Virus record (IMG/VR): IMGVR_UViG_3300042318_001133
Coordinates: 1 to 64,000 of that record
DNA from: a virus
Lineage: Duplodnaviria; Caudoviricetes
Direction: 5' to 3' (one strand)
Length of the DNA: 64,000 nt
Shown: positions 1,240 to 26,655 of the stretch, one piece after another
Layout of the letters: every line of letters starts with the position of its first letter
Numbering within the stretch: position 1 is the stretch's first letter
Made by a program: the position numbers and the translations under genes
Notes under the pieces: model-generated
What the model was told of the DNA's origin: nothing
What the model saw: only the letters and a program-made list of their open reading frames with translations
Databases searched by the model: none

Positions 1240-3228
1240 TTAATTAATGGTACAGTGATCTCCATCGCAATATAGCTCTGGTGCTGAATCTTCAGCAATT
1301 CCATCGAAGTTTAATTCTTTGATGGTAGCTTTGATTTCCAGATATCGCTCTTTCGATACTCCCTCGTATGGCATTTGAGGATATGCTCCTGCTTCTAATT
1401 TTGGTAAGAAGCTGATTCCTTTTAAGTCATATTGGAAGTAGTTAAGTGCATGTTTGATTTGATCTCCGTCTGCAGGTTTGAATGTTACAGTTGAAGATAC
1501 TTGATTGTCTGCCCAATACTTCTGTAAGAATGCAGCTAAAGAAACTTGCTCCCATAAAGTCACTTCATCGACAGTCCTTACTCCTTCGATCGCAACTGGA
1601 ATTTCAACAATCACAGAAGTCTCTGGAGATGAATTGCTTGGTTCAATCTTATATCCCGCATCAAGACATTGTTGCACTAATTCTGAACTCTTAGAAAGAG
1701 TCACTCGACGAATGTAGTAATTATCTTCTGGCCAATGCATTCCTGGAGTAACTCCTGGAAGAAGTGATACCGTTCCGGAAGGCTTGATTGAAGTGGTTTT
1801 GATAGATCGAGGAATACATAGCCAATCTGAATAGATCTCATCGTATTTCTGGATTGCAGCATATCCACGCTCACATAATTGCTTCAATTGATCGATTCCA
1901 TATTTTTCAAGGTATTGTGCAACACCTGACATAGAAGTACCAATACGACGATTACGAAGCATTACGCGATTAGTCTCAGACCAGTGCGTTCTTCCTAAAG
2001 TAACTGTTTTTGCGTACAAGTATGCAAACTTCAATGTACGCTCATAATCTTCAATTGAAGTATGTCTTGTAGGAAAAGTTTCCACTAAACAGCACAATTC
2101 GAACGACTCTAATGTTTGCTCCAAGCAAGGATTACCTCCTTTTGCTTTGTGATCTTTATTGTTGATTGGATCTGCCATTCTTCCGAATTTCTGCATATTG
2201 TCCAACCAAGCATATCCCGGTTCTCCATTTACGGCAGTTTGATCTCCAACACGTTTATAATCCATACCCACTTTAGCAAATACTGAATTATTCGAAGTCC
2301 AACCCCATTCAGATCTGTGCTTCATTTCACCTACCATTGCACCTTGAGTTGCGTCCCAACGATAGTCTTTCAATTTCAAGTACTCTTCACTGTCAGCCTC
2401 TCCAAATACAATCTCAGCCGTTCTACGAACATTCCCAGCAACTACGCAAGCACCGATCATATTCATAATATCTGTGATGTCTGTTTGAGTAATTGTATCG
2501 CCGTGACGATTATCAAATACCATCGCAATACGATCCAACAATTGCTTCAATGGTCCTGGACCTGAAGCCTTCCCTCCAAACGTCTTGATTGGGGTACCTT
2601 CTTTACGGATCAAAGAATAGTCGAATTCAAGTCTTTCACTATCTTTAACGAAGTATGTCAACAGTTGCAACTTTACAGCTTCAACCCAACCCTCTCTCGT
2701 ATCTGGAATGGTGAAGATTGACTTGTGCTCTTCGATCGGTTGATAGATCTGAATTAATCCTGCACCCTTCACGTCGAAACCAACTCCAACACCTAACATC
2801 GACATATCCATTAAGAATTCGAAAGGTTTTGTTGGCTCTATATGTAATGAATCTGTAGATACGAATGCGCAATTGTTAAGTGCTGCAAAAAGATCTCTCT
2901 TCTCCGTAATGTCAGTTCCCATTGCCCACAAACCTCTTCCTGGAGGAAGGAATTTCATGTCGAACATACGTTCATACATCTCTTGAGCAGACTCTTGTGC
3001 TTTTGCAACATCCCAACCTAATTCGTATTTCAAGATATGTCTACCCTGAAGACTATAAGCTCCTTCAACTACACGTTTACACGTCTCCCACCACTTCTCA
3101 TTCGTACCATCTTCTTTGACACGTGAATATGTTCTCATATACACTAATTCGCCAAGGCCATTAAAGCCGAAGTCTGGTTTCTTTTTTTGGAATTCCTTCA
3201 AGAAATCCTCGTTTAGTTTAAATTGCAT
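1240..3228 (-). CDS. nrdJ: Class II (adenosylcobalamin-dependent) ribonucleotide reductase, monomeric RTPR type
   Basis: 662 aa; FLPPGRGLW, LNNCAF, VVAGNVRRTAEI, GGNPCLEQ (N-C-E catalytic loop), TTSIKPSGTVS, C-terminal CDGDHC. Confidence 0.93.
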   Translation of the reverse strand: MQFKLNEDFLKEFQKKKPDFGFNGLGELVYMRTYSRVKEDGTNEKWWETCKRVVEGAYSLQGRHILKYELGWDVAKAQESAQEMYERMFDMKFLPPGRGLWAMGTDITEKRDLFAALNNCAFVSTDSLHIEPTKPFEFLMDMSMLGVGVGFDVKGAGLIQIYQPIEEHKSIFTIPDTREGWVEAVKLQLLTYFVKDSERLEFDYSLIRKEGTPIKTFGGKASGPGPLKQLLDRIAMVFDNRHGDTITQTDITDIMNMIGACVVAGNVRRTAEIVFGEADSEEYLKLKDYRWDATQGAMVGEMKHRSEWGWTSNNSVFAKVGMDYKRVGDQTAVNGEPGYAWLDNMQKFGRMADPINNKDHKAKGGNPCLEQTLESFELCCLVETFPTRHTSIEDYERTLKFAYLYAKTVTLGRTHWSETNRVMLRNRRIGTSMSGVAQYLEKYGIDQLKQLCERGYAAIQKYDEIYSDWLCIPRSIKTTSIKPSGTVSLLPGVTPGMHWPEDNYYIRRVTLSKSSELVQQCLDAGYKIEPSNSSPETSVIVEIPVAIEGVRTVDEVTLWEQVSLAAFLQKYWADNQVSSTVTFKPADGDQIKHALNYFQYDLKGISFLPKLEAGAYPQMPYEGVSKERYLEIKATIKELNFDGIAEDSAPELYCDGDHCTIN

Positions 3229-13402: not shown

Positions 13403-16400
13403 TTACAATACCTCAAAAACCGTATCTTTGTCTGTGTTAATAATATTACTTTTATGTTTGAAGTCGTCAAACTGAACCTTTCCTTCAACTATCAATATGC
13501 AGTTTTTGCTGTCAATAATATCCTTACGAGCCTTCACCCATTCACCTGCCCAAAACGTAACAGCGATAAGATCTGAATTGCAATCGATTATAATGTTGGC
13601 AAACTTGCCATTTTTACTCTGTCTCTCTTTCACTTCAACCACAATTCCCGCAACGATACGACGTGAACGCTCTCTTTCTTTAATGTCACGTAAAGTTGCA
13701 GCATCTGCAAACTTTGCGAAATGATCTTTACATGCACTCATTTTAATGACATTGCGATAATCAAAAGATCCAAGACCAGAGATAAGTTTTTGCTGCAATC
13801 TCCACCACCACTCTTTCTTTCCGATGAATTTAGATGGTAATTCTTCTTTTCGAAGCTTGAAATACTCTCTCAAAATCTCAATACGATCCGAAAGACGCTC
13901 TTCAATGCGATATAGAGAATCGAAAGATCCGGCCAATATTAAGTTCACAAACACATCTTTCTTTACCTTTCCTTTTGGCAATCTCTCAAATGCTTCTTCA
14001 ATGTCATAAAACTTACCACCTCTCTCTCTTTCTTCGATAATTACTGCAGAAGCAACCGTTCCACACTGTTTGATTCTACCTAATGACCAATACAAGTGCT
14101 TCTTATCGAAATCTGCAGTCAGGTTAATTTGAGAACTGTTAATGTCTGGAGGACGAATAACTACTCCACTATTCGATCTTCCAATTTCACTAATGTATTT
14201 TGAAATATCTCCCTCTGCTGCAAATTGGAATGCTACAGTCCAGAACTGAACTGGATATGCAAATTTCAACCAATTACACATATATCCGGTTATCGAATAA
14301 GCTGCAGCGTGGGATTTATTGAATCCATATCCAGAGAACACTTCCAGAGTGTCCCAAATCTGTTCCGCTTCAGCTTGATCGCAACCCCTTTCAAGAGCAC
14401 CTTTGATGAATAAGATCTTGTAGCCATCCATCTGTTCTTTGATCTTTTTACCCATCGCTTTACGTACACCATCTGCTTCAACTAAACTAAATCCACCCAA
14501 TACTTGCATGGCCTTCATTACTTGCTCTTGATAGATGTATAGTCCGTAAGTATCTTGCGTCACTTCTCTCAATCCATAATCGTAATGCGGATCCTCTTGA
14601 CCAGCCTTACATTTTACGTATTTATTGTGAGCGCCCGAACTCATCGTTCCTGGACGATGTAGTGCAATCATCGCAATAAGATCGTCGATACTATCTGGCT
14701 GTACAGACTTTGAATAGCCTATCAATCCATCTGTTCCGAAGTGAAATACATCTTCACTCAAACCTTGTTGAAACAGTTCAAATACTCCAGGTTCATTCAG
14801 TGGAATATCTTCAAGTCCCAAATCCTTACCAGTTGTCTGTTTGATTAGATTGAAGATGGCACGAAACTTGTCTAATTGCTTAATTCCCAAGATATCTTCC
14901 TTCAAGAATCCAGCCTTCTCAGTAAACGACCCCTCCCACTCTGAAATCAACTGACCATCTGCAGTCTTACGAACTGGCAGCCAATCGTAAATCGTCATAG
15001 GTTCTCCATCTTCATCAAACTTTGGAACGATAACAGTAGCACATGCATGTATAGATGCTGATTTTGGTTGACCTAAACACAATGGAATGAGATTAATCAT
15101 GTCAGCATTATCACACAGAAACTCTTTTACTTTCGACTTCGTTGTTGCATTTATAAATAGCGTTTTGAAGTTCTCTTTTTCGATATCTAATACGGCAGTG
15201 ATGTAGTTGGCAGTCGCAAAGTCTATTTCATGTTGACGAGATAAATCTTTCAATGCACCTTTCAATTGTAGTGTTGTATAGGTTCCTACTGAACAGACAT
15301 AGTCTTTGCCATATTTATCAATCATGTATTGCTTCACCTCCTCTCGACGAATTCCCTCGAAATCCGTATCGATATCAGGTAGAGATGACTTAATCCTTGA
15401 CTCATTCAAGAAACGCTCAAATAACAAGCCATATCGCAAAGGATCCAACTTCGTTATCCCCATCATATATGCAATTAAAGAGCCTCCAGCCGATCCACGA
15501 CCAACTCCCGTTAAGATACCATTCTTGCGACACCAATTGTTAATGTCCCATAGAATTAAGAAGTAGCTTTGAAATCCTCCTCTTGAAATTACATCAGCCT
15601 CTACTTCAATACGCTCCAAATAATCGTCAAGCGTAAAACCTTCTGCTGGAACGATCTTCTCAATAGCACCCTCAATGATGTGCCAAAACAAATCTTCATT
15701 ACTGCCACAAATAGCAGCTTCATCGGGATTCATTTCATATTGAGGTAAGTGAAGCTTTCCTAATGGAATTTGAAAATTGCAAGATTCTCCAAGAATCTCT
15801 AAGTTTTGAAGAGCTTGTTGAAATACCTCGAAAACCCTTTCATCTTCCTCGTGAAATAGGTTTGCAATATCTTGAAATAATTGATCTACGGATTTGAAAT
15901 ACTCTTCATTGGATCCATTTGAACCTCCATTGCCTATTTTATTCAAAAGCGGCTTAATGACACAATCCATTTGATCGAGATAATATGCATCTGAGAGAAG
16001 TATTGGTTCGATCTTATTCATCCATTTATCGAGATAGTCTCTATGTGCATTTAGAGAGGTAAAGTCTTTCTGAGGCGATGTATATTCAACTGGATTAAAT
16101 TGACAAAAACATGCATCGAAACTACTTTTTAATTGAGCGATGAGTTTATCTGACAATGGACATTCTGGATGAATAACGATTGCAACACCCTCTCCTTTCG
16201 TCAGTAACGTATCGACGTCAATACATTTATTTACACTATCAATGTTGATGACTTTATTGATATTCAATACATTCTTCCAACCTCTTTTATTCATAGCAAA
16301 CACACGAACATCTTGGATCTTCTTGTTGTCGTGAAAATCAACAGAGATCGTCTCTCCAAGTATGGGTTTAATTTTACTCGAATTACATTCCAATTGAAAA

Positions 16401-16840
16401 GACATAGTTCCTGCTAAAGTGTTGCGTTCGCAAATTGCAAGAGTCTCGTATCCAAGAAAGCGTGCCTTCTTACACCAATCTCGATAATCTCGAGATCCAT
16501 TTAACAATTCATATTGCCCATGTACACCTAAATGTGTCGTACTGGATAATTCTTGTTTTGCAGATCCAACGTAGCGTAATGGAATTAGCTCTGGTTCGTG
16601 TATATTATTGATTGGAGTGTAGTAATATTGACCTCCAAAGATAAATGCATAGAAGTTGGAATCTGATGAATGTGCTTCGTTAAATTCACGAGGCTCTACG
16701 ATCAAATTAAATGTATCGCCAAAAACACGATCTGTATCAGCCAGTACATAAAATCTACCGACACCCTCTATTTCGAAAAGATGATCTGTTATAAAGGTAG
16801 CGTCTAACAGATGTACCTCAATCCATTCTTGAATTTTCAT
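13403..16840 (-). CDS. dnaE: DNA polymerase III alpha subunit (family C)
   Basis: 1145 aa; PHP region, GRGSAGGSL, LLFERFLN, PDIDTDF, KEDILG, YQEQVM, FNKSHAAAYS, C-terminal OB fold. Confidence 0.96.
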   Translation of the reverse strand: MKIQEWIEVHLLDATFITDHLFEIEGVGRFYVLADTDRVFGDTFNLIVEPREFNEAHSSDSNFYAFIFGGQYYYTPINNIHEPELIPLRYVGSAKQELSSTTHLGVHGQYELLNGSRDYRDWCKKARFLGYETLAICERNTLAGTMSFQLECNSSKIKPILGETISVDFHDNKKIQDVRVFAMNKRGWKNVLNINKVINIDSVNKCIDVDTLLTKGEGVAIVIHPECPLSDKLIAQLKSSFDACFCQFNPVEYTSPQKDFTSLNAHRDYLDKWMNKIEPILLSDAYYLDQMDCVIKPLLNKIGNGGSNGSNEEYFKSVDQLFQDIANLFHEEDERVFEVFQQALQNLEILGESCNFQIPLGKLHLPQYEMNPDEAAICGSNEDLFWHIIEGAIEKIVPAEGFTLDDYLERIEVEADVISRGGFQSYFLILWDINNWCRKNGILTGVGRGSAGGSLIAYMMGITKLDPLRYGLLFERFLNESRIKSSLPDIDTDFEGIRREEVKQYMIDKYGKDYVCSVGTYTTLQLKGALKDLSRQHEIDFATANYITAVLDIEKENFKTLFINATTKSKVKEFLCDNADMINLIPLCLGQPKSASIHACATVIVPKFDEDGEPMTIYDWLPVRKTADGQLISEWEGSFTEKAGFLKEDILGIKQLDKFRAIFNLIKQTTGKDLGLEDIPLNEPGVFELFQQGLSEDVFHFGTDGLIGYSKSVQPDSIDDLIAMIALHRPGTMSSGAHNKYVKCKAGQEDPHYDYGLREVTQDTYGLYIYQEQVMKAMQVLGGFSLVEADGVRKAMGKKIKEQMDGYKILFIKGALERGCDQAEAEQIWDTLEVFSGYGFNKSHAAAYSITGYMCNWLKFAYPVQFWTVAFQFAAEGDISKYISEIGRSNSGVVIRPPDINSSQINLTADFDKKHLYWSLGRIKQCGTVASAVIIEERERGGKFYDIEEAFERLPKGKVKKDVFVNLILAGSFDSLYRIEERLSDRIEILREYFKLRKEELPSKFIGKKEWWWRLQQKLISGLGSFDYRNVIKMSACKDHFAKFADAATLRDIKERERSRRIVAGIVVEVKERQSKNGKFANIIIDCNSDLIAVTFWAGEWVKARKDIIDSKNCILIVEGKVQFDDFKHKSNIINTDKDTVFEVL

Positions 16841-18558: not shown

Positions 18559-19374
18559 TTATTGGATTAAATTGTTGATCCAATCGATATTCTGCTTAAT
18601 TAGCGGAAAATGTTTTTCATCGTATGGTAAATTAAAATCTACCTCCAATTGAATTTTGCCATTTACAAGTCCTCTTCCAGAGTCATCGAAAGCGATGCCA
18701 TTAATTGCATGCCAGAATGCTGTAGATGAATCATTTGTATCTGCAACTCCCAACATTCGCATCATCATCAACTCTCTTGGATCTGCACATCCTAAATAGT
18801 GATGCTTTACTCTTTCATCGATAATTCCTTGCTCCTTTAAATATGCCGTAGCGTATGTTCGATTGAATGAGATGTCTTCAGTTCCAGTCTTTGAACAGAA
18901 TGCATTTGGAATACCCATAATACTCATTCCAATCCATTGCACTTCCTCAAGAGCCGTAAGTGCTCTATAGCAAGAGATCCATCCCTTCCAGTCTCCTTTT
19001 TGAGATTGTGGAACTGCCATCAACTTAACTGAAGGATCGAAGTAGTCGTGATATCTTTTTGAAAATGCTGTAGTTTGAATTACCGTCTTCTCCCAATGTT
19101 CGAATGGATAGTCAGGAGCAACTACAATATCTGGAGTAAATCCTGCACCTCCAATTAAACGAAACATCTCATCTGCCTCTAATGGTCTTTTGAACTCAAA
19201 CGCTCCATTGTCTACGATAATGTAATCTCCCTGCTCTTTACGTTTCTTGTAGAAGTCGCAATATGCTTTATCTTCCAGTAAATGAGCCAATAGTAAGTGA
19301 ATAGTAACGTCTTTCGGTACTAAATGTAAATACGCCGTTGGCGCAATAAAACAGTGTTGAAAATTCTTTTGCAT
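18559..19374 (-). CDS. dpdA: TGT-fold guanine transglycosylase, DpdA-like (inserts 7-deazaguanine derivatives into DNA)
   Basis: IIVDNGAFE (DSGxF-like), APD, AVPQ, HYLG, NDSS follow TGT/DpdA motif order; clustered with folE/queD/queE. Confidence 0.72.
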   Translation of the reverse strand: MQKNFQHCFIAPTAYLHLVPKDVTIHLLLAHLLEDKAYCDFYKKRKEQGDYIIVDNGAFEFKRPLEADEMFRLIGGAGFTPDIVVAPDYPFEHWEKTVIQTTAFSKRYHDYFDPSVKLMAVPQSQKGDWKGWISCYRALTALEEVQWIGMSIMGIPNAFCSKTGTEDISFNRTYATAYLKEQGIIDERVKHHYLGCADPRELMMMRMLGVADTNDSSTAFWHAINGIAFDDSGRGLVNGKIQLEVDFNLPYDEKHFPLIKQNIDWINNLIQ

Positions 19375-19376
19375 TG

Positions 19377-19880
19377 CTATGAATTTAGTTTAATTAATAC
19401 ATTTGGTAGCATTTTGAAAACATGCTCAAGTTTATATAATCCCAGTTCAGCATCCTTTGCTCGCGCTCTCTCAAAAGAAACGTCATCTTTACGATCCGCT
19501 CTGGAATAGAATCGCTCCTTCAAAATCTCTGAAGGTACCTGCAACCAAATAGGTTGAATTGAAAGATGTATCGATTCACACTCTTCCAGAATAGCATCAA
19601 AGATACTTTCTTGACGTATTCCTTCGATGATCACTTTTCTTCCACTTGCAAGGGACTTCTTCATTTGTGTAATCATTTCAGTTGCAATCATCTGATCAAG
19701 ATGTGCCGTCTCAGCTAATTTTGATCGCTCAAAGGCGCCCGATATCATCTTTACTACATCGGATGTAGTAATTTGATCGTGAGTATCTGAGAACGTCTTG
19801 CAGAACGTGTTTTTTCCACTGCACAACTCGCCACATACGAAGATGATTTGATTATTCTGTAATTTCGGCTCCGTTTTCAT
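19377..19880 (-). CDS. P-loop nucleoside monophosphate kinase-like protein
   Basis: GELCSGKNT, VIIEGIRQE, lid-like ILKERFYSRADRKDD...RAKDAELG. Confidence 0.75.
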   Translation of the reverse strand: MKTEPKLQNNQIIFVCGELCSGKNTFCKTFSDTHDQITTSDVVKMISGAFERSKLAETAHLDQMIATEMITQMKKSLASGRKVIIEGIRQESIFDAILEECESIHLSIQPIWLQVPSEILKERFYSRADRKDDVSFERARAKDAELGLYKLEHVFKMLPNVLIKLNS

Positions 19881-20199
19881 TGTCTTCTAATATTGAACAG
19901 TAAACTAAATCAAATCGCTGGAATAACTCTCTTGCCAACATTTCACAGCTCATAGCTCCAAGTAAATACGATCTTAGTTGTAGGTCGAAATACTTACTCA
20001 GGTAATCTAAGATGTCGCGCTTAAACATGATAATTTCAACATCACGATCGTCGTGTGTAACTCGCTTCTTACAAGTTACGAAAAACTTGTGGCGGTGTAG
20101 GTCACTTAAAAAGGCCACCTCAGGCAGCATCTCTTTTGCTGCAGGCCAATTATGAATTCCATCGAACTCTAAATTGACGATGATGTTTGTTTTAGACAT
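19852..20199 (-). CDS. QueD-like T-fold paralogue (candidate DpdL, CDG decarboxylase)
   Basis: GIHNWP, LHRHKFFV, DRDVEII, SCEMLA, EDNENGA; second QueD-like protein in the locus. Start taken at MSKTN (20199); ORF track gives 20211. Confidence 0.68.
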   Translation of the reverse strand: MSKTNIIVNLEFDGIHNWPAAKEMLPEVAFLSDLHRHKFFVTCKKRVTHDDRDVEIIMFKRDILDYLSKYFDLQLRSYLLGAMSCEMLARELFQRFDLVYCSILEDNENGAEITE

Positions 20200-21334
20200 A
20201 GTCGTTTTCAATTAATAATTTATATGCATGTTTAATTACTCTTTGTTTATTTTTAGGATTGATTTTAATCTTAATGCCCATCACATCTTCAACTGTATTG
20301 CAAATTTCTCTCGCTGTTAATTGCTGCAAATCCCAGAAATCTTCCACAATCGCCTCAGATAATGTAGTTGTTGCTTTTTTGAGTGTTGTATACTTACTTT
20401 TTGGATTAACTACTGTCAAATAATCTACCTCAACTCCACACAATCTCGACAAACATATTCTCAAATCACTTGCATGTAAAGATAAGACTGAAGTATAGTC
20501 ATCGTCACGATATCCTCCAAAGAGAGATAGCGTCACGGGTACGATAATTTGGTGCTCCGATTCCATTGCAGCAACCCACGCATAGAAAATCTCTGAACAT
20601 CTCAACCACTCTTCTGTAGAACACTGATGACCTAACTGATCCCATTCATGAGAATCGGCTCCATGACACCACACTACGTAATGTACTTCGTTATTCAAAA
20701 AAGCTTTCGTCAACTTTACTAAAGCCTTAGTAAAATCTTTCAAATAAGCTGCATGAGATCCTTGCGGATTGATATTGAAGGGAATTGCTTCACGTAGATC
20801 GGAAACAAACCTTTTCGAGTCTTCAATACTGTTTCCGAAGTGGCCGTCTAAATCTAAAAAAGCAGCCTTGTTGCCAGTCTCTCTATAAATTTTAGTCGCA
20901 GCAATAACTTGACCAGAAAAAGTACAAAAACCAGAACCTTGATCAGGTTTTGCGTGATGAAAGCCTGAAGTTGGACTGAATGTAATTGTCGAAGGTCTCT
21001 CTATTGCAGACAGCATCGCTTCATACAGACTTGCATTTGTGTACGTCAAACTATCAACCAAAGACAGACTCCATGGAAGTCCATTAGATTTATATTGACC
21101 TACACCAGTGAATACATCTTTAACATATCGTTTCGTATGAGCAATCTGAAAGTCTCGAGGAGTAAATGGCTCGAATGTATCGTTAATGGTAAGAAATTCA
21201 CCAAATCCATTGTCGCGTAGATATTGCATCAATAGCGCTGGCTTCATTGGCGATTTCGAATACGACTTCTCACGAATATCGTTAGTACAGACTTGCTTTG
21301 GCGTATAAAACACCTCTATCTTGCGCGCTCTCAT
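20192..21334 (-). CDS. Histone deacetylase-superfamily (HDAC/acetylpolyamine amidohydrolase-like) Zn hydrolase
   Basis: SGFHHA, GFCTF, DLDGHFGN, HGADSHEWDQLG, GGY: full HDAC catalytic and Zn-ligand set. Start taken at MRARK (21334). Confidence 0.88.
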   Translation of the reverse strand: MRARKIEVFYTPKQVCTNDIREKSYSKSPMKPALLMQYLRDNGFGEFLTINDTFEPFTPRDFQIAHTKRYVKDVFTGVGQYKSNGLPWSLSLVDSLTYTNASLYEAMLSAIERPSTITFSPTSGFHHAKPDQGSGFCTFSGQVIAATKIYRETGNKAAFLDLDGHFGNSIEDSKRFVSDLREAIPFNINPQGSHAAYLKDFTKALVKLTKAFLNNEVHYVVWCHGADSHEWDQLGHQCSTEEWLRCSEIFYAWVAAMESEHQIIVPVTLSLFGGYRDDDYTSVLSLHASDLRICLSRLCGVEVDYLTVVNPKSKYTTLKKATTTLSEAIVEDFWDLQQLTAREICNTVEDVMGIKIKINPKNKQRVIKHAYKLLIENDYV

Positions 21335-21335
21335 A

Positions 21336-21533
21336 TTAGTTAAAGTAATATAAAAGTGAAATACCAATTACTGTGAAGATTGCAGCATATACCAGTGTAC
21401 GTCTGAAGGGTCTCATCAAATCTTCAATATCTTCAGATGGGCCCATTTTCTTGAAGCACCAAATAGTATCTATTATACAAGTAACAATGAAGGTTGCCAG
21501 TGTTACGATCATTACGATTGCGTTTGTTTCCAT
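21336..21533 (-). CDS. Small membrane protein (two hydrophobic segments)
   Basis: 65 aa; IVMIVTLATFIVTCII and TLVYAAIFTVIGISLLYYF. Confidence 0.7.
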   Translation of the reverse strand: METNAIVMIVTLATFIVTCIIDTIWCFKKMGPSEDIEDLMRPFRRTLVYAAIFTVIGISLLYYFN

Positions 21534-21560
21534 GTTTACGATTTTAATAATTTGTTTCGA

Positions 21561-21599
21561 TAAAGATACACCAACAAATTAGATATACAACGTATATCT
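21561..21599 (-). promoter_or_regulatory. Promoter: TATCTTTA box plus perfect palindrome AGATATAC-AAC-GTATATCT
   Basis: Box at 21561-21568 and dyad at 21581-21599, lying between a terminator and the start of the HDAC-dpdA operon. Confidence 0.7.
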
Positions 21600-21615
21600 T
21601 TTAAAATGTGAGAAT

Positions 21616-21660
21616 AAAAAACCTCCCATAACTATTTTACCAGTATTTCGGGAGGTTTTT
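21616..21660 (-). terminator. Terminator ending the queD-queE-folE-hpt-dUTPase-like unit
   Basis: Minus strand AAAAACCTCCC...GGGAGGTTTTTT with a long (~22 nt) loop. Confidence 0.65.
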
Positions 21661-21668
21661 AAATGGAA

Positions 21669-22181
21669 TTATTTTATATCTTTTTCACCCTGGAACTGTC
21701 CTGCATACTCTTCCGACAATTGAGTTTCTGCCATTAAGATCTGAGCAACGCGAGATCCGTATTCGATAGTTACAGTATTGTGAACTACCATTACTGCACC
21801 CATGAATTCAGTCTTAAATCCTGGATCGTAAACTGCGCTTTTAATTTCTACCCCCATTCTCAATAGCGAAGATCTATGTACGATCTCCGCTTTGATGTTA
21901 TTCGGCAGACTGCAACCCTGATGAAATGTAATTGAATATACTCCTGGAGCAAGCGCCCACAGCTTCTCTTTTTCGTTATGAGGATTAATCATAAGAGGAA
22001 CAGGAATGTATGCGGATTGATCGATATCCGATCCGCTTTGCGTTAGTTTGTGATTACCTGAGCAGATCTGCTTAACTTGATGTAGTGTTAAGTCATATCC
22101 AACTTGAGCGGCTTTTCCAAAGTGTTTAAATTGATCATTGAATACTAAAATTGATTCAATATTTGCTGCATTAAGATACAT
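21669..22181 (-). CDS. Trimeric dUTPase/dCTP-deaminase-fold protein (archaeal-type dUTPase-like)
   Basis: GYDLTL, HRSSLLRMG, VYDPGF, GSRVAQI, YAGQFQG. Confidence 0.8.
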   Translation of the reverse strand: MYLNAANIESILVFNDQFKHFGKAAQVGYDLTLHQVKQICSGNHKLTQSGSDIDQSAYIPVPLMINPHNEKEKLWALAPGVYSITFHQGCSLPNNIKAEIVHRSSLLRMGVEIKSAVYDPGFKTEFMGAVMVVHNTVTIEYGSRVAQILMAETQLSEEYAGQFQGEKDIK

Positions 22182-22206
22182 AAAACGATTCTTTAAAGTG
22201 AATTAT

Positions 22207-22225
22207 AAATATATGAAGTATATCT
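22207..22225 (-). promoter_or_regulatory. Palindromic promoter/operator variant (AAATATAT-GAA-GTATATCT)
   Basis: Intergenic between hpt and the dUTPase-fold gene. Confidence 0.6.
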
Positions 22226-22230
22226 TTATT

Positions 22231-22746
22231 TTAATCTTTATCAACCCTATAGATAGAAGGAATGTTGCGATTATAAAGGGCGTTATCTAATCCATATCCA
22301 TATACCCAATCATTCTTATCTGCATTGAATACGAAGAAGTCTGGAGGCATAATTGTCGGATCATCTCGACGAATTAATGTGCATGTAGCAATCGATGCCG
22401 GGATAGAGTTCTCGTTGATTTTTTCAATGATCTTCAACATCGTTCCTCCCGTGTCATAGATATCATCTACAATGATAACGTGCTGATTATTTAGATCAAG
22501 ATCCCATAACTTTGTAAAGAACACATTTCCGGCCTTTTTATCTTTGCCGTAACTTGAGCAGCCTACGAAGTCGATCTTCATATCAATATGAATGTGTCGC
22601 ATTAGATCTGCCATAAAAATGACAGCACCATTCAACACTCCCAACATAACAATTTCTTTTCCTTCGTAGGCAATATTAATTGCCTGAGCAACTTCAACGA
22701 CAGCAGACTGAATCTCGTCTGTCGTTCTCCATTCAGAACACTTCAT
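22231..22746 (-). CDS. hpt: Hypoxanthine-guanine phosphoribosyltransferase-like protein
   Basis: GVLNGAVIFMADL, SSYG, PRPP motif VIIVDDIYDTGGT, WVYGYGLD, RNIP. Confidence 0.9.
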   Translation of the reverse strand: MKCSEWRTTDEIQSAVVEVAQAINIAYEGKEIVMLGVLNGAVIFMADLMRHIHIDMKIDFVGCSSYGKDKKAGNVFFTKLWDLDLNNQHVIIVDDIYDTGGTMLKIIEKINENSIPASIATCTLIRRDDPTIMPPDFFVFNADKNDWVYGYGLDNALYNRNIPSIYRVDKD

Positions 22747-22747
22747 A

Positions 22748-23380
22748 TTACTTCAAATCAGCAATGAAGCGATAGAATTCATGTCTCGTACCAATCTCAT
22801 TTGTAAAGAATAGTCCAGACAATTTAGCAGTCTTCATTGTAGAATCATGTCGAACACCTCTACATGAAGCACAAGTATGTTTTGCTTCAATCATGACAGC
22901 GATACCTAAAGCGTCAGGAACTAAATCCTTCAAATAATTATGTATTTGTTGTGTCAAGTTTTCTTGAACTTGAGGACGTCTTGAGAAGTAGTTTACTACA
23001 CGATTCAATTTAGATAAGCCAATTACTTTTCCGTTTGGATTGGGAATGTATGCTACGTGAGCTTTTCCCGTAAATGCTAAGTGATGGTGTGAACACATAC
23101 TTACCATTTCAATGTCTCCTTGGAATACAATTCCGTCGTAATTGTCCGTATTTTCAAATGAAGTGATTTTCGGTGGAGCTTGGAAGCATCCTTCGGCTAA
23201 ATCATTTACCCACGCCTTTGCTACTCTGTTTGGAGTATCTGACGAGTGTGGATCGTTTTTAAAATCAAATCCTAAAGCTTTCATGAACTCTGCATAAGCT
23301 ACTGCAGCTTTAGCGATCATTTCTGCTTTTTCTTCTTTAGTTCTTTCAATAGAACCATTTGCGCGTGTTAGCATTTCCAT
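22748..23380 (-). CDS. folE: GTP cyclohydrolase I
   Basis: [61 protein letters not shown]. Start taken at MEMLT (23380); the longer ORF start overlaps queE. Confidence 0.95.
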
Positions 23381-23421
23381 TATTACAATTTTAAGAATTA
23401 CAAAATTACTACTTGAAAGGA

Positions 23422-24174
23422 TTAGACTCCTCTCTTGTCTCCATATATTACTACATGAAGTCGGTCTGTATAATTGTATCCAGATTTGGTACAAAACTCT
23501 ACTAACCATTTACGATTTTTCTGAAGGGTTTCATTATCCATCCCTTCTGGCATTAGCCAGCACTTATCGTTCGGTACATTCAGTTCTTTTTGAAGTACGA
23601 GAAATTCTTTCAAAGTCGCCTCATCTGAAATGACTGGCTTTAACTGATAATCTGGATGTGATTCGATTAACTGCAGCATCGCTGTAGTGTTCGTTCTCCA
23701 CTTCTCATGTTGGATCTTATCTTTTTCAGTTACCAGTCGATCTAAGTACGGCATAACAGTTCCTGGACGCGGTGTTGAATTAGATAGCTTCGGAGAAAGT
23801 GAAATGCAATCTGCTGATGTTTGCGCAAATTCAGATCCTTCAGTTTCGATCGTAACGTGATGTCCATAAGTCTTCGCAATGCGACAAATTTCTTGCGCCA
23901 AATCTGGATTCATTAAAGGACCTCCACCAGTCAACATTGTATGTTTGATTTGAGGATTGTCTTTGTAGAGTTTGATGACGTCATTTAACGTCGTATTGCC
24001 TTTTTCGGGCTTCCAGCTATTATGCCAAGTGTCGCAAAAGCTATTTGCAAATTGACATCTCAATCGACATCCAGTTGTTCGAATTAGAAGATGAGGAATT
24101 CCTGTAAATTTACCTTCACCTTGAACGCATGGATACATTTCATTGATTGGTACGATTTTCTGATAATCTATCAT
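23422..24174 (-). CDS. queE: 7-carboxy-7-deazaguanine synthase (radical SAM)
   Basis: [21 protein letters not shown]-x6-[36 protein letters not shown]. Start taken at MIDYQ (24174). Confidence 0.93.
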
Positions 24175-24175
24175 G

Positions 24176-24664
24176 TTACAATGTATTAAATTTCTCTTCA
24201 CAGTAGATAGCACTATTGCTATCGTTTTCAAAACACTCTACTTTAATCACCTTACAGCGACCCGCATCTGTTTTTGATAGTACTTCATTAAACTTATCGA
24301 AAACCATCTTAGCACACGACTCTGCACCCATTTTCTCCATAAAATGAACCTTACATACACCTTCCATCTGCATTGCTTCAAACAAGTCTCTATATGGATC
24401 ATTTGCTTGAATTAATGTAGTGTGATCCCACATATGATTCATCCAAGACTTTAGACCGTTTCCTACTGGAGCATCTTTAAATCCTCCAAAATCAACAATC
24501 CAATTCATGTCATCTAATTGACGATCAATTTCTGGCTCAACAGAAGCGAACCACACTTTAAACTTTAAAGCGTAACCGTGAAGCAATTCACAGTGAGAAT
24601 GAGAAGCTTTCCATTGACGAATGGCAACTGAATAGTTCTCAAAAATTTTTGTTGAAATAAACAT
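24176..24664 (-). CDS. queD: 6-carboxy-5,6,7,8-tetrahydropterin synthase
   Basis: HSHCELLHGY, WIVDFGG, WDHTTL, GAESCA, VECFEN; adjacent to queE and folE. Confidence 0.88.
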   Translation of the reverse strand: MFISTKIFENYSVAIRQWKASHSHCELLHGYALKFKVWFASVEPEIDRQLDDMNWIVDFGGFKDAPVGNGLKSWMNHMWDHTTLIQANDPYRDLFEAMQMEGVCKVHFMEKMGAESCAKMVFDKFNEVLSKTDAGRCKVIKVECFENDSNSAIYCEEKFNTL

Positions 24665-24674
24665 TTACGATTTA

Positions 24675-25166
24675 TTAAATTATACGCGTGACGCTGTCCA
24701 TCGAGTATGGCTTTAACGATTCACTACCTCTTGGTTTGATAAAGATAACCTTTTTATCGAGATGTACTTCGTATATCTCCCCAATTATAATTTGCTCTTC
24801 GCAGAACACCTTTACTTCTGCACCTTTTGCGTAGTAATTTTCAACATCTAAATGATGTAGTGCTTGTTTATCTTTTTCATCACGATAAACGAAATTTGGT
24901 AAACCTTTCTCTTGGAAAAGTCTTCTATAGAGCGCTTGCTTGATCTCTGGACTTGTGAAAAGAGAAGGTAGGACGTTACGCACCGCAATGTCTTGAATCT
25001 TTTGCTTTTTGTGAAGCATTACTTTTGTATAGTATGCTTTATCTTTTTGTTTGGGATAGATTTTTCGCCTCAACTCTACCGTCAAATACTCAAGTTGAAG
25101 AATTTCAAGAAACTCATAAATTGAGAGATGACGAGTTTTCGATGTTGCTATTTTACTATTTTCCAT
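24675..25166 (-). CDS. Hypothetical protein (possible C-terminal SH3/KOW-like barrel)
   Basis: 163 aa, coupled downstream of primase; beta-rich C-terminus GAEVKV...IIGEIYEV...VIFIK. Confidence 0.7.
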   Translation of the reverse strand: MENSKIATSKTRHLSIYEFLEILQLEYLTVELRRKIYPKQKDKAYYTKVMLHKKQKIQDIAVRNVLPSLFTSPEIKQALYRRLFQEKGLPNFVYRDEKDKQALHHLDVENYYAKGAEVKVFCEEQIIIGEIYEVHLDKKVIFIKPRGSESLKPYSMDSVTRII

Positions 25167-25168
25167 GA

Positions 25169-26200
25169 TTACAATTTTTTCTGTACTTTATTAATGCTAA
25201 AATCAAGCGGTGATTCGAGCGACGCTAAAATTAATAATAATTCTTCTAAATCCAAATCTCCTGGATCGCAAGTTGAAGTAAATCCAACCTCAACTCGAGA
25301 AAATCTTTTAGTTAATTCAAATGCGTACTTTTTACTTGAATCGACTGCATCTGGATCGTAGAGTAAGATGACGTGATCGATTCCCTTATTGTATAGTTTT
25401 TGAATTTGATATTCACTTAACTTTTTACCAAAACTACAAATGCATTTGATGCTGGGATCACTATACAATTCAAGCAATTTATCGACATTGGTCTTATCAA
25501 AGAAACCCTCCACAATAATGACTACTTCAGTTTCACTAACAATTTCATCAATCCCCATCAACAACTTACCAAAGTCTGTATTTACTGAGTTTTGATATCT
25601 GATGTGTCGCTGTTTTGATCCCTGCTCCTTTTTCTTGTTATTGTATTGATCTATCCAAGCCTTTGAACGAATACTTCGACCTACAAACCCTTTACATTCC
25701 CCATCCTCTAAAATCAGGGCAACTACATAATCTTTGAAAGATCTCAATAGCGAAGTCCTACCGATCTGGTATTGATTAAATTGCTCATCGACAAAGCCTC
25801 GCTCGCGCAAATACTCATCTTCAAAGCATCTTCTCCATCCAAGTGGAGGAGTTTTTTTAGGTACTGAAAGATCTAATGGCTCAACAACAACTCTCGATAC
25901 ACGCTTCTCGATCTTCTTTTCAAGTAAGGATCCAACTGCAACTTCACGTCCGAAGTCGATAAGGTTTAACTTACCGAGCTTTGCAAAAAGTTTACGGATT
26001 CGTCCATTTTCACCGCACTTCTTACATTCCCAAAACCAAGACAAATTATCGCCACGCTCATTACGCTTTGTAGTTTCTCTTTGAACGTAGAGGTGATTTG
26101 CACTTTCGCAAAATGGACAAGTAGCGACATAGTGCGTTCCTGTTCCATTTTTCGAAACGTCGGTTAAATTTTCGTAAACGATCGAATCCGTAACTCTCAC
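25169..26200 (-). CDS. dnaG: DNA primase (zinc-binding plus TOPRIM domains)
   Basis: CPFC...H...CKKC zinc motif; YLRERG; IIVEGFFD; LLYDPDA. Confidence 0.88.
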   Translation of the reverse strand: MRVTDSIVYENLTDVSKNGTGTHYVATCPFCESANHLYVQRETTKRNERGDNLSWFWECKKCGENGRIRKLFAKLGKLNLIDFGREVAVGSLLEKKIEKRVSRVVVEPLDLSVPKKTPPLGWRRCFEDEYLRERGFVDEQFNQYQIGRTSLLRSFKDYVVALILEDGECKGFVGRSIRSKAWIDQYNNKKKEQGSKQRHIRYQNSVNTDFGKLLMGIDEIVSETEVVIIVEGFFDKTNVDKLLELYSDPSIKCICSFGKKLSEYQIQKLYNKGIDHVILLYDPDAVDSSKKYAFELTKRFSRVEVGFTSTCDPGDLDLEELLLILASLESPLDFSINKVQKKL

Positions 26201-26655
26201 TATTTTCCAGTTGAACCAAATCCACCCTCTCCTCGATTCGTGTCTCCTAAAGAGTCAACTTCCTCTAATTCAATTACTGGGCATGGTAAAATAATTAACT
26301 GAACACACTTTTCTCCTACAGCGTATTCTTGTATGTCGAATTGTGCATCTTGATCATTTTCATCAAAATTGCGCCACGGCGTTCTTATGAAGCGAGCCTT
26401 AACGTCACCTCTATAATCTGAGTCGATAATTCCAACGGAATTCTTCAACATTAAATCCTTTTTCGTTACAGAGCTACGTGGCACCAACATTCCAAAATAA
26501 CCTTCTGGAATTTCAACTGCAATGTTTGTATTTATTTCGATAAATTGACTCTCTATCGAAATCGATGTTGCGAACAAATCAAATGCCGCAGATCCTACTG
26601 TAGACCTTACTGGAGTAACTGCAGCAACGTCTGTTTTTTTAAACTTCAACTTCAT
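26200..26655 (-). CDS. dut: Trimeric dUTPase (canonical)
   Basis: AAFDL, PRSS, GIIDSDYRG, VQLII, RGEGGFGSTG (motifs I-V). Confidence 0.96.
   Translation of the reverse strand: MKLKFKKTDVAAVTPVRSTVGSAAFDLFATSISIESQFIEINTNIAVEIPEGYFGMLVPRSSVTKKDLMLKNSVGIIDSDYRGDVKARFIRTPWRNFDENDQDAQFDIQEYAVGEKCVQLIILPCPVIELEEVDSLGDTNRGEGGFGSTGK

What the first reader, a model, noticed from the sequence alone, without database searches (positions are those of the whole stretch)
19377..22746. HPRT plus NMP kinase in the locus: nucleotide-level route or guanine recycling
Seen: an intact phosphoribosyltransferase follows folE, and an NMP-kinase-like gene sits between the DpdL-like and DpdA-like genes, overlapping the former. 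The phage also encodes its own class II reductase and DnaE. Established: PRTases turn free purine bases into NMPs; Z-genome phages build modified purines at the nucleotide level. Inference A: 7-deazaguanine is converted to NMP, NDP/NTP and dNTP and incorporated during replication, a pre-replicative route alongside or instead of transglycosylation. Inference B: guanine released by DpdA is salvaged to feed FolE, closing a cycle. Either would extend the known pathway.
Basis: partly seen in the sequence, partly recalled or inferred. Interest (0 to 1): 0.75.

Follow-up and report, generated by a model that had tools for sequence, protein, structure and literature searches.

The report
Nucleotide enzymes inside phage 7-deazaguanine module
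A phage predicted to replace the guanine in its DNA with 7-deazaguanine carries a purine phosphoribosyltransferase and a nucleotide-kinase-like gene inside that gene cluster, and both travel with such clusters in many other phages, which suggests (without proving) that the odd base is handled as a free nucleotide before DNA is copied.

Summary
All genes lie on the minus strand, tightly packed: QueD, QueE, FolE, an Hpt-type PRTase (22231-22746), a dUTPase-fold protein, an HDAC-like protein, DpdL, a P-loop kinase (19377-19880, overlapping DpdL by 29 nt), then DpdA3. No QueC was found. This is the known phiST-type 7-deazaguanine (dDG) module with extras.

- **Kinase.** Its fold is closest to UMP and AMP kinases. 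In 43 of 50 viral contigs it sits with DpdL, and 10 database clusters are DpdL-kinase fusions. Other DpdA3 phages carry unrelated (d)NMP kinases at DpdA3 instead.
- **PRTase.** It belongs to a phage-specific Hpt subgroup (DDIYDTG; Lys165 to Arg, Phe186 to Trp). Relatives occur on 186 viral contigs. Of the best 80, 73 have QueE and 66 have FolE within 10 kb.

So neither gene occurs independently of the deazaguanine genes. But they rarely occur together: the PRTase is in 2 of 50 kinase loci, and a kinase is in 11 of 80 PRTase loci.

My best reading is a pre-replicative route: dGTP to dGMP, a DpdA3 base swap, then kinase to 7-deaza-dGTP. The PRTase would recycle the released guanine. Nothing here is biochemically shown.

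Cui et al. 2023 concluded that insertion is post-replicative. The scan has already reached this reading on at least eight other genomes.

The parts
24176..24664 (-). QueD (CPH4 synthase)
   Evidence: PF01242, E 9e-11. 39% identical to phiST QueD.
23422..24231 (-). QueE (CDG synthase, radical SAM)
   Evidence: PF04055; TIGR03365 QueE, E 1.6e-17.
22748..23509 (-). FolE (GTP cyclohydrolase I)
   Evidence: PF01227, E 9e-49.
22231..22746 (-). Hpt-type 6-oxopurine phosphoribosyltransferase, phage-specific subgroup
   Evidence: PF00156 at 68.9 bits. TIGR01203 at 126 bits, below the 150-bit cut-off. Solved HG(X)PRTs match at E 9e-26. Motif VDDIYDTG; the human Lys165 position is Arg and the Phe186 position is Trp. 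Relatives occur on 186 viral contigs, mostly next to QueE/FolE.
21669..22181 (-). DCD/dUTPase-fold dNTP-pyrophosphatase-like protein. It is a second dUTPase-fold gene besides the canonical Dut.
   Evidence: PF22769, E 1.5e-11. PRK02253 (archaeal-type dUTPase) at 83 bits against dCTP deaminase at 34 bits. RSS, DPGF and AQ motifs are kept, and there is no Glu at the deaminase position (my reading). Present in 40 of 50 kinase loci.
20192..21367 (-). HDAC/arginase-fold protein inserted in the module (role unknown)
   Evidence: PF00850, E 1e-20. Not found in any of the 130 related IMG/VR loci (L003-L052, L058-L137). Homologues occur in huge uncultured phages and in Rhodococcus phage E3.
19852..20211 (-). 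DpdL (QueD paralogue, proposed CDG decarboxylase)
   Evidence: phrog_17812. LxxxHRHxF motif. 35% identical to phiST gp040. 43-56% identical to the N-terminal halves of 9 of the 10 DpdL-kinase fusion proteins (36% for P0093).
19377..19880 (-). NMP-kinase-like P-loop kinase (homologue of phiST gp041/CGPG_00066)
   Evidence: AAA_18, E 3.5e-9. The family has 289 representative clusters. AF2 model pLDDT 93.7. Fold matches: UMP kinase Z 15.6, adenylate kinase Z 15.4, SSO1041 Z 15.2, PNK Z 13.7 and 13.1. Profile against PDB: SSO1041 3e-9, AK1 2e-4, Pnkp 5e-3.
18559..19374 (-). DpdA3 (compact TGT-like transglycosylase)
   Evidence: phrog_20335. 28% identical to phiST gp042. 283 homologues were found, and the 120 listed are 233-316 aa. 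Invariant DNGAFE and D-S-S motifs; no conserved Cys cluster.
26200..26655 (-). Canonical trimeric dUTPase
   Evidence: PF00692, E 3e-17.
13403..16840 (-). DnaE-type replicative polymerase
   Evidence: PF07733, PF17657, PF02811.
1240..3228 (-). Class II (B12-dependent) ribonucleotide reductase
   Evidence: PF17975 and PF21995.

Best explanation
The stretch is part of a phiST-type QueC-less 7-deazaguanine (dDG) module. Both flagged genes belong to that module functionally. They are not chance neighbours.

Proposed mechanism (every step is inferred from gene content and none is shown):
1. FolE, QueD and QueE make CDG from GTP. DpdL removes the carboxyl group.
2. The dUTPase-fold protein (a MazG-like protein in phiST and immuto phages) turns a dNTP, proposed to be dGTP, into dGMP.
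3. DpdA3 exchanges guanine for the deazapurine at the nucleotide level, giving 7-deaza-dGMP and free guanine.
4. The NMP-kinase-like protein, translationally coupled or fused to DpdL, makes the diphosphate.
5. Host Ndk makes 7-deaza-dGTP, and the phage DnaE incorporates it.
6. The Hpt-type PRTase converts the released guanine to GMP. This removes a competing base and refills the GTP pool that FolE consumes.
For: **Kinase-to-module linkage**
- Of 50 IMG/VR loci holding a kinase relative (30-44% identical), 43 have DpdL (34 with a gap of 100 nt or less, 30 overlapping or abutting).
- 43 have FolE, 40 have DpdA3 and 40 have the DCD-like gene.
- Ten separate 50%-identity clusters are DpdL-kinase fusions.

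**Non-orthologous kinases at DpdA3 in other phages**
- A T4 gp1-type DNMK follows DpdA3 directly in Vibrio phage D479 and Aeromonas phage Ahp1. A weaker DNMK-like gene does so in Vibrio phage Bakedbeans.
- An AAA_28 kinase sits in the Flavobacterium immuto_2-6A module.
- Ahp1 also has a canonical gp1 elsewhere, so its DpdA3-adjacent copy is an extra one.

**dNTPase-like genes**
- DCD-like genes follow the kinase or DpdA3 in D479, Ahp1 and Rhizobium phage RHph_I1_18.
- MazG-like genes sit in the phiST and immuto modules.
- The window and at least 10 loci hold both a canonical Dut and the DCD-like gene.

**Kinase fold**: closest to UMP and AMP kinases.

**PRTase-to-module linkage**: of the best 80 of 186 viral contigs, 73 have QueE, 66 FolE, 65 QueD, 50 MazG and 47 DpdA3 within 10 kb, across QueC, QueF/DpdN and DpdL module types.

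**Published facts** (PMC10516641)
- phiST DNA has dG fully replaced by dDG.
- DpdL plus DpdA3 expressed in E. coli gave no dDG.
- All tested DpdA3 phages are fully modified, whereas other DpdA types reach 30% at most.

**From my own knowledge**
- Complete replacement is typical of pre-replicative systems such as T4 (gp56, gp42, gp1) and S-2L (MazZ, PurZ).
- Polymerases accept 7-deaza-dGTP.
Against: - No TGT-family enzyme is known to act on free nucleotides.
- Cui et al. 2023 interpret DpdA3 as a DNA transglycosylase.
- Most QueC-type DpdA3/PRTase/MazG loci show no small P-loop kinase within 10 kb by a crude motif search.
- phiST, MA9V-3 and immuto_2-6A have no canonical PF00692 dUTPase. Their module pyrophosphatase may therefore be an ordinary dUTPase.
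- A dUTPase fold is not expected to take purines.
- Many of the loci come from related phages, so conserved gene order is partly inherited.
- Two distant kinase relatives are fused to DNA ligase, and PNKs are close fold matches.
Confidence: 0.45

Rival explanations
1. The PRTase joins CDG (or DG) to PRPP. DpdL decarboxylates the ribonucleotide. The kinase makes the diphosphate. The class II RNR reduces it, and the triphosphate is polymerised. DpdA3 would be a back-up or a repair enzyme.
For: - TubE of the tubercidin pathway is a PF00156 PRTase that uses CDG plus PRPP in a QueC-less FolE/QueD/QueE cluster. Decarboxylation follows at the nucleotide level (PMC6112128).
- A DpdL-kinase fusion makes most sense if DpdL's product is a nucleoside monophosphate.
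- The phage PRTase subgroup has changed base-pocket residues: Lys to Arg and Phe to Trp.
- An RNR is present.
Against: - 48 of 50 kinase modules have no PRTase.
- About 69 of 80 PRTase modules have neither kinase type.
- The same PRTase subgroup serves QueC, QueF/DpdN and DpdL modules, which make different bases. That argues for a common substrate such as guanine.
- The Asp that contacts N7 in HGPRTs is kept.
- DpdA3 would be redundant.
Confidence: 0.2
2. This is the published post-replicative model plus a guanine-to-GTP recycling loop. DpdA3 swaps bases on finished DNA. The PRTase (guanine to GMP) and the kinase (GMP to GDP) only recycle expelled guanine to feed FolE. The dUTPase-fold or MazG gene is ordinary dUTP housekeeping.
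For: - Cui et al. 2023 assign DpdA3 as the DNA-inserting enzyme.
- The PRTase usually lies directly beside FolE.
- A kinase-FolE fused ORF occurs in L016 and L017.
- phiST, MA9V-3 and immuto lack another dUTPase.
Against: - The kinases that replace it in D479, Ahp1 and Bakedbeans are of the T4 gp1 deoxynucleotide-kinase family. Ahp1 keeps an extra copy at DpdA3.
- The PRTase and the kinase rarely co-occur, although a loop would need both.
- The window and at least 10 loci hold a canonical Dut as well as the DCD-like gene.
- DpdL plus DpdA3 alone did not work in E. coli.
Confidence: 0.2
3. The kinase is a polynucleotide 5'-kinase that heals nicks or abasic-site breaks made during transglycosylation. 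It is not a nucleotide kinase.
For: - PNKs are close fold matches: Z 13.7 and 13.1.
- NCBIfam Pnkp matches at E 1.5e-4.
- Two distant family members are fused to ATP-dependent DNA ligase.
- The S-D-x-x-R motif after strand 2 resembles the Pnkp motif as I recall it.
Against: - NMP kinases score higher by both fold and profile.
- The D-G-x-R motif matches the AMP-binding SSO1041 protein, not the D-x-T-N motif of PNKs (and my own recall for the PNK motif).
- Fusion to the small-molecule T-fold enzyme DpdL is hard to explain for a DNA-end kinase.
- It is replaced by gp1-type dNMP kinases in other phages.
Confidence: 0.08
4. Both genes are general nucleotide-supply genes that merely sit in the phage's nucleotide-metabolism region. 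They have no specific tie to the deazaguanine pathway.
For: The module lies among RNR, Dut, DnaE, primase and helicase genes.
Against: - The linkage is tight and repeated, and there are fusions.
- Hpt-like genes are rare in isolated phages. Only 18 of 50,697 records matched, mostly short unannotated fragments or records that look bacterial.
Confidence: 0.04

Closest known systems
dDG system of Cellulophaga phage phiST (FolE, QueD, QueE, MazG-like gp039, DpdL gp040, 'ATPase' gp041, DpdA3 gp042; Cui, Hutinet et al., NAR 2023, PMC10516641)
   Same: - Same QueC-less gene set.
- Same DpdL, kinase, DpdA3 order, with DpdL and the kinase overlapping.
- DnaE lies downstream.
- Protein identities are 28-49%.
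   Different: - The window adds an Hpt-type PRTase and an HDAC-like gene.
- It has a DCD/dUTPase-fold gene where phiST has a MazG-like gene.
- The paper set the kinase (CGPG_00066) aside as absent from other deazaguanine phages. Here it is found in about 45 further modules and in 10 fusions.
Tubercidin/toyocamycin pathways (TubE/ToyH PRTases; PMC6112128)
   Same: FolE, QueD and QueE without QueC, plus a PF00156 PRTase. The deazapurine enters metabolism as a nucleotide, with decarboxylation afterwards.
   Different: - The decarboxylase there is a UbiD enzyme, not a T-fold DpdL.
- The product is a secreted ribonucleoside, not DNA.
- I had no TubE sequence to compare with.
- A TGT-like enzyme is present here.
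Pre-replicative base replacement in T4 (gp56 dCTPase, gp42, gp1 dNMP kinase) and in Z-genome phages (MazZ, PurZ, DatZ); from my own knowledge
   Same: The logic is a dNTP pyrophosphatase, an enzyme acting on the dNMP, and a phage dNMP kinase. The outcome is complete replacement of one base.
   Different: The modifying enzyme here would be a TGT-fold base exchanger, which has never been shown to use mononucleotides. None of the steps has been shown.
Bacterial hypoxanthine-guanine PRTase (Hpt, TIGR01203)
   Same: Same fold and length. The PRPP loop, the catalytic Asp and the GYG-x-D motif are kept. Identity is 35-43%.
   Different: - It scores below the equivalog cut-off.
- Its subgroup shares ED to DD, Ile to Tyr, Lys165 to Arg and Phe186 to Trp.
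- That subgroup is found almost only in phage deazaguanine clusters.

Membership tests
6-oxopurine PRTase (Hpt; PF00156 / TIGR01203) | PRPP-binding loop (two acidic residues, then x-x-D-T-G) and the family score | tested here: met
   VDDIYDTGGT is present. PF00156 scores 68.9 bits against a 26.3-bit cut-off. The TIGR01203 equivalog scores 126.4 bits, below its 150-bit cut-off.
6-oxopurine PRTase (Hpt; PF00156 / TIGR01203) | Base-pocket residues: Lys contacting O6 (human K165) and the stacking Phe (F186) | tested here: not met
   These are Arg and Trp in the window and in all five other phage-clade sequences aligned with it, and Lys and Phe/Leu in the six non-phage Hpt-like homologues aligned, three of them annotated as Hpt. 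The human numbering comes from my own knowledge.
6-oxopurine PRTase (Hpt; PF00156 / TIGR01203) | Activity with guanine or hypoxanthine plus PRPP | not testable with these tools
   Needs an enzyme assay.
NMP kinase (adenylate/UMP-CMP kinase fold) | P-loop, NMP-kinase fold, and conserved Arg residues in the NMP-binding and LID regions | tested here: met
   The sequence has GELCSGKNT. G22, K23, G87 and R89 are invariant, and R52 and R123 are at least 90% conserved across 144 sequences. R127 is invariant in the 18 closest sequences. Top fold matches are 1ukz Z 15.6, 1aky Z 15.4 and 3lw7 Z 15.2.
NMP kinase (adenylate/UMP-CMP kinase fold) | Match to a curated NMP-kinase family model (ADK, Gmk, Tmk) | tested here: not met
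   Only the generic AAA_18 and AAA_33 models match. NCBIfam gives only weak Pnkp and PhnN hits.
Polynucleotide 5'-kinase (T4 Pnk / bacterial Pnkp kinase domain) | Fold and motifs of PNK; association with end-healing or ligase domains | tested here: inconclusive
   PNK folds score Z 13.7 and 13.1, about 2 below the NMP kinases. Two distant relatives are fused to DNA ligase. The window gene has no such partner.
phiST-type dDG module (Cui et al. 2023) | FolE, QueD and QueE present, QueC absent, DpdL with LxxxHRHxF, DpdA3 homologue | tested here: met
   No QueC was found in the 79.5-kb record, which is estimated 76% complete.
phiST-type dDG module (Cui et al. 2023) | dDG actually present in virion DNA | not testable with these tools
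   Needs LC-MS of phage DNA. This phage is known only as a metagenomic record.
TubE/ToyH-type deazapurine PRTase | Uses CDG or preQ0 with PRPP | not tested
The only parallel is the gene context.
dUTPase/DCD superfamily pyrophosphatase (the neighbour at 21669-22181) | dUTPase motifs present; deaminase Glu absent | tested here: met
   PF22769 and PRK02253 at 83 bits. The alignment to 9w59 keeps RSS, DPGF and AQ, and there is Val at the position three residues before the conserved Asn. Base specificity is unknown.

The most novel reading that the evidence does not exclude
DpdA3 is not a DNA transglycosylase. It would be the first TGT-family enzyme to exchange the base on a free deoxynucleotide (dGMP to 7-deaza-dGMP). 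DpdA3 phages would then replace all their guanine pre-replicatively, through a dGTPase, DpdA3 and dNMP-kinase trio, with an Hpt-type PRTase acting as a guanine sink.
Probability: 0.3. Interest if true: 0.85.

Novelty: new variant of a known kind. Interest (0 to 1): 0.6.

Why it matters
The published view (Cui et al. 2023) is that all phage 7-deazaguanine DNA modifications are inserted after replication. The kinase in phiST was set aside as not shared with other deazaguanine phages.

The census here contradicts the second point. A nucleotide kinase, a dNTP-pyrophosphatase-like enzyme and a special purine PRTase are recurrent members of DpdA3 modules, and they are sometimes fused to module genes.

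- This offers a concrete explanation for why DpdL plus DpdA3 failed in E. coli.
- It may also explain why DpdA3 phages reach complete replacement of guanine.
- It names the exact enzymes to assay.

If the reading is confirmed, it adds a fourth purine/pyrimidine pre-replicative replacement system and a new substrate class for the TGT fold. It would also give a route to enzymatic 7-deaza-dGTP.

Tried and rejected
- A near-identity DNA search of phage records gave nothing.
- Single-protein scans of viral contigs with the kinase and with the PRTase found no relatives. Alignment-based scans were needed.
- The 144-sequence kinase alignment was too diverse to give search patterns.
- The first kinase model, built from 3 sequences, was poor (pLDDT 67). 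I replaced it with a deep-alignment model.
The contexts of the fusion proteins and of P0153 and P0154 could therefore not be read directly. Shared contig lengths (18141 and 93836 bp) suggest that P0153 and P0152 lie on the same contigs as DpdA3 homologues P0194 and P0191.
- A PRTase tree could not decide whether the window clade and the L037/L041 clade were acquired once or twice. The branches are long and the forks are open.
- DpdA3-kinase fusions, mentioned in earlier scan notes, were not seen among the best 120 DpdA3 homologues, which are all 233-316 aa.
- A crude Walker-A search found no obvious small kinase near most QueC-type PRTase loci.
- Four kinase loci without the module (L010, L014, L018, L047) are fragments estimated at 5-17% complete, so they say nothing either way.
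- I did not run complex prediction, because a pass would not separate the rival explanations.
- Literature searches for DpdA3, or for kinase or PRTase roles in phage deazaguanine pathways, found nothing beyond Cui et al. 2023.

Full report
**1. What is there**

The window is the first 64 kb of a 79.5-kb viral record, estimated 76% complete. GC content is about 38%, and almost all genes are on the minus strand.

Read in the direction of transcription, the region holds these genes:

| Gene | Coordinates |
|---|---|
| Primase-like gene | 25169-26200 |
| Unknown ORF | 24675-25166 |
| QueD | 24176-24664 |
| QueE | 23422-24231 |
| FolE | 22748-23509 |
| PRTase | 22231-22746 |
| DCD/dUTPase-fold protein | 21669-22181 |
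| 65-aa ORF | 21336-21533 |
| HDAC-domain protein | 20192-21367 |
| DpdL | 19852-20211 |
| P-loop kinase | 19377-19880 |
| DpdA3 | 18559-19374 |
| Four unknown ORFs | — |
| DnaE | 13403-16840 |

- The kinase overlaps DpdL by 29 nt and stops 2 nt before DpdA3.
- The PRTase starts one base after the FolE stop.
- No QueC is present in the record.

**2. Identity of the module**

The kinase, DpdL and DpdA3 proteins are homologues of phiST gp041, gp040 and gp042 (34%, 35% and 28% identity). Cui et al. 2023 (PMC10516641) reported the following for phiST:
- dG is completely replaced by 2'-deoxy-7-deazaguanosine.
- gp040 was named DpdL (proposed CDG decarboxylase; motif LxxxHRHxF, which the window protein has).
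- gp042 was named DpdA3.
- The kinase (CGPG_00066) was set aside because no other deazaguanine phage had it.
- DpdL plus DpdA3 gave no dDG in E. coli.
- All insertions were concluded to be post-replicative.

The same DpdL, kinase, DpdA3 arrangement occurs in Chryseobacterium phage MA9V-3.

**3. The kinase**

*Family size and fusions.* A profile search of 1.8 billion representative proteins found 289 clusters. Ten of the 150 listed are 265-290 aa proteins. Their N-terminal half is DpdL (36-56% identical to the window DpdL) and their C-terminal half is the kinase. Two distant members are fused to an ATP-dependent DNA ligase.

*Gene context.* An alignment-based scan of IMG/VR gave 50 loci. The counts are:

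| Feature in the 50 kinase loci | Loci |
|---|---|
| DpdL present | 43 |
| DpdL within 100 nt upstream | 34 |
| DpdL overlapping or abutting | 30 |
| FolE present | 43 |
| FolE directly downstream | 35 |
| DpdA3 present | 40 |
| DCD-like gene present | 40 |
| PRTase present | 2 |

Of the loci without the module, four are fragments estimated at 5-17% complete.

*Fold and sequence.*
- With a 144-sequence alignment, the AF2 model reached pLDDT 93.7.
- VIA-align ranks uridylate kinase (Z 15.6), adenylate kinase (Z 15.4) and the AMP-bound Sulfolobus SSO1041 protein (Z 15.2) above polynucleotide kinases (Z 13.7 and 13.1). Foldseek agrees.
- A sequence profile hits SSO1041 at 3e-9, AK1 at 2e-4 and Pnkp at 5e-3.
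- Conserved residues are the P-loop, the S-D-x-V-R/K motif, R52, D-G-I-R-Q, R123 and R127.

I read it as an NMP-kinase-like enzyme. A polynucleotide-kinase role is not excluded.

**4. Other DpdA3 phages use other kinases**

Each phage below has a kinase or a dNTPase-like gene at or near DpdA3.

| Phage | Genes at DpdA3 |
|---|---|
| Vibrio phage D479 | DpdA3, then a T4 gp1-type dNMP kinase (PF21448), then a DCD-like gene. DpdL and FolE lie just upstream. |
| Aeromonas phage Ahp1 | Same trio and same upstream genes as D479. |
| Vibrio phage Bakedbeans | A weaker DNMK-like gene overlapping DpdA3. |
| Rhizobium phage RHph_I1_18 | A DCD-like gene directly after DpdA3. |
| Flavobacterium phage immuto_2-6A (100% fdPreQ1 in Cui et al.) | Module has a PRTase, FolE, a MazG-type pyrophosphatase, DpdA3, DpdN, an AAA_28 kinase and QueF. 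|

Ahp1 also has a full-length canonical gp1 elsewhere in its genome, so the copy at DpdA3 is an extra one.

Three unrelated kinase families and two unrelated pyrophosphatase families at the same place are hard to explain unless nucleotide phosphorylation and dNTP hydrolysis belong to the pathway.

Two caveats apply:
- phiST, MA9V-3 and immuto have no other PF00692 dUTPase, so their module enzyme could be an ordinary dUTPase.
- The window and at least 10 IMG/VR loci have both a canonical Dut and the DCD-like gene.

**5. The PRTase**

- It is an Hpt-type 6-oxopurine PRTase. The best solved relatives are HGXPRT and HGPRT, and it is 35-43% identical to bacterial Hpt. It scores below the equivalog cut-off.
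- Aligned with bacterial Hpt, the window protein and five other phage copies share four changes: ED to DD and Ile to Tyr in the PRPP loop (VDDIYDTG), Arg at the position of the O6-contacting Lys, and Trp at the stacking Phe. The Asp that contacts N7 is kept.
- Using these motifs, a scan found 186 viral contigs. The best 80 gave the counts below within 10 kb.

| Feature in the 80 PRTase loci | Loci |
|---|---|
| QueE | 73 |
| FolE (usually directly adjacent) | 66 |
| QueD | 65 |
| MazG-like gene | 50 |
| DpdA3 | 47 |
| immuto-type DpdN/AAA_28/QueF set | 10-12 |
| DpdL | 4 |
| Window-type kinase | 1 |

- One such locus, L073, has ThyX, DpdA3, QueC, QueD, QueE, the PRTase, FolE and MazG.
- immuto_2-6A itself carries a different, short PRTase, Gpt-like by my reading, at the same position. 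Its metagenomic relatives carry the Hpt type there.
- The search patterns selected for the motifs, so their presence in these loci is not independent evidence. The link to deazaguanine genes is independent.
- A tree could not resolve whether the PRTase was acquired once or more than once.

**6. Weighing the PRTase's role**

*For a TubE-like role (Inference A):*
- The tubercidin precedent, in which TubE uses CDG plus PRPP.
- The altered base pocket.
- DpdL-kinase fusions, which would make most sense if DpdL's product is a nucleoside monophosphate.

*For guanine salvage or a guanine sink (Inference B):*
- One PRTase subgroup with one pocket serves modules that make different bases (DG, preQ0/ADG type, formyl-preQ1). 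The common substrate is then guanine, the by-product of every transglycosylation.
- It sits beside FolE, which consumes GTP.
- Arg could read O6 and N7 together and so select guanine over 7-deaza bases (my inference).
- DpdA3, not the PRTase, is the constant glycosidic-bond enzyme.

I put B ahead of A, but sequence cannot settle it. The kinase and the PRTase rarely co-occur, so a strict PRTase-then-kinase chain is not the general design. The window is one of the few modules with both; the others are L037, L041, L134 and the immuto type.

**7. DpdA3**

In 66 aligned sequences the TGT-like motifs D-N-G-A-F-E and D-S-S are invariant. No Cys cluster is conserved, so the Zn subdomain of TGT appears to be missing (the mapping onto TGT is from my own knowledge). 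This is compatible with a small substrate but does not show one.

**8. Verdict**

A nucleotide-level component of DpdA3-type systems is the best reading of the gene content. The PRTase most likely recycles guanine.
- No step is shown biochemically.
- Earlier notes of this scan reached the same reading on at least eight other genomes. Those are not independent evidence.
- In the held literature I found nothing on this beyond Cui et al. 2023.

Noticed in passing
window 20192-21367 (-): An HDAC/arginase-fold protein (PF00850, E 1e-20) lies inside the module and overlaps the DpdL start by 20 nt. It is absent from all 130 related IMG/VR loci. Homologues (46-50% identity) occur in 600-735-kb uncultured phages, and a 30% homologue occurs in Rhodococcus phage E3. 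Its role is unknown.
   Followed up: partly
window 19377-19880 (-): The database version of this gene (P0002, 123 aa) starts at Met45 and so lacks the P-loop. The 167-aa reading that overlaps DpdL is the one supported by homologues.
   Followed up: yes
L016:9983-11095 and L017:8036-9148: A single ORF joins the kinase and FolE in two contigs from sister samples. It could be a real fusion or a lost stop codon.
   Followed up: no
L002:7105-7989 (Chryseobacterium phage MA9V-3): DpdL is fused to an N-terminal domain of about 170 aa with no Pfam match. That domain occurs as a separate ORF in at least 10 IMG/VR loci, most often between FolE and DpdA3. The window has no copy.
   Followed up: partly
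P0130, P0131: These distant kinase-family members are fused to an ATP-dependent DNA ligase. That looks like an end-healing and sealing arrangement.
   Followed up: partly
L057:6001-7269 (Rhizobium phage RHph_I1_18): The DpdA3 homologue is about 420 aa and is annotated as DUF3310-containing, so it carries an extra C-terminal part. A DCD-like gene follows directly.
   Followed up: no
window 22748-23509 and 23422-24231 (-): The longest FolE ORF has about 70 residues before the Pfam domain and overlaps QueE by 88 nt. The true FolE start may be further downstream.
   Followed up: no
L073:9248-9974: In a 164-kb QueC-type contig, a staphylococcal-nuclease-like gene and a 4HBT thioesterase gene sit between QueE and the PRTase.
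   Followed up: no
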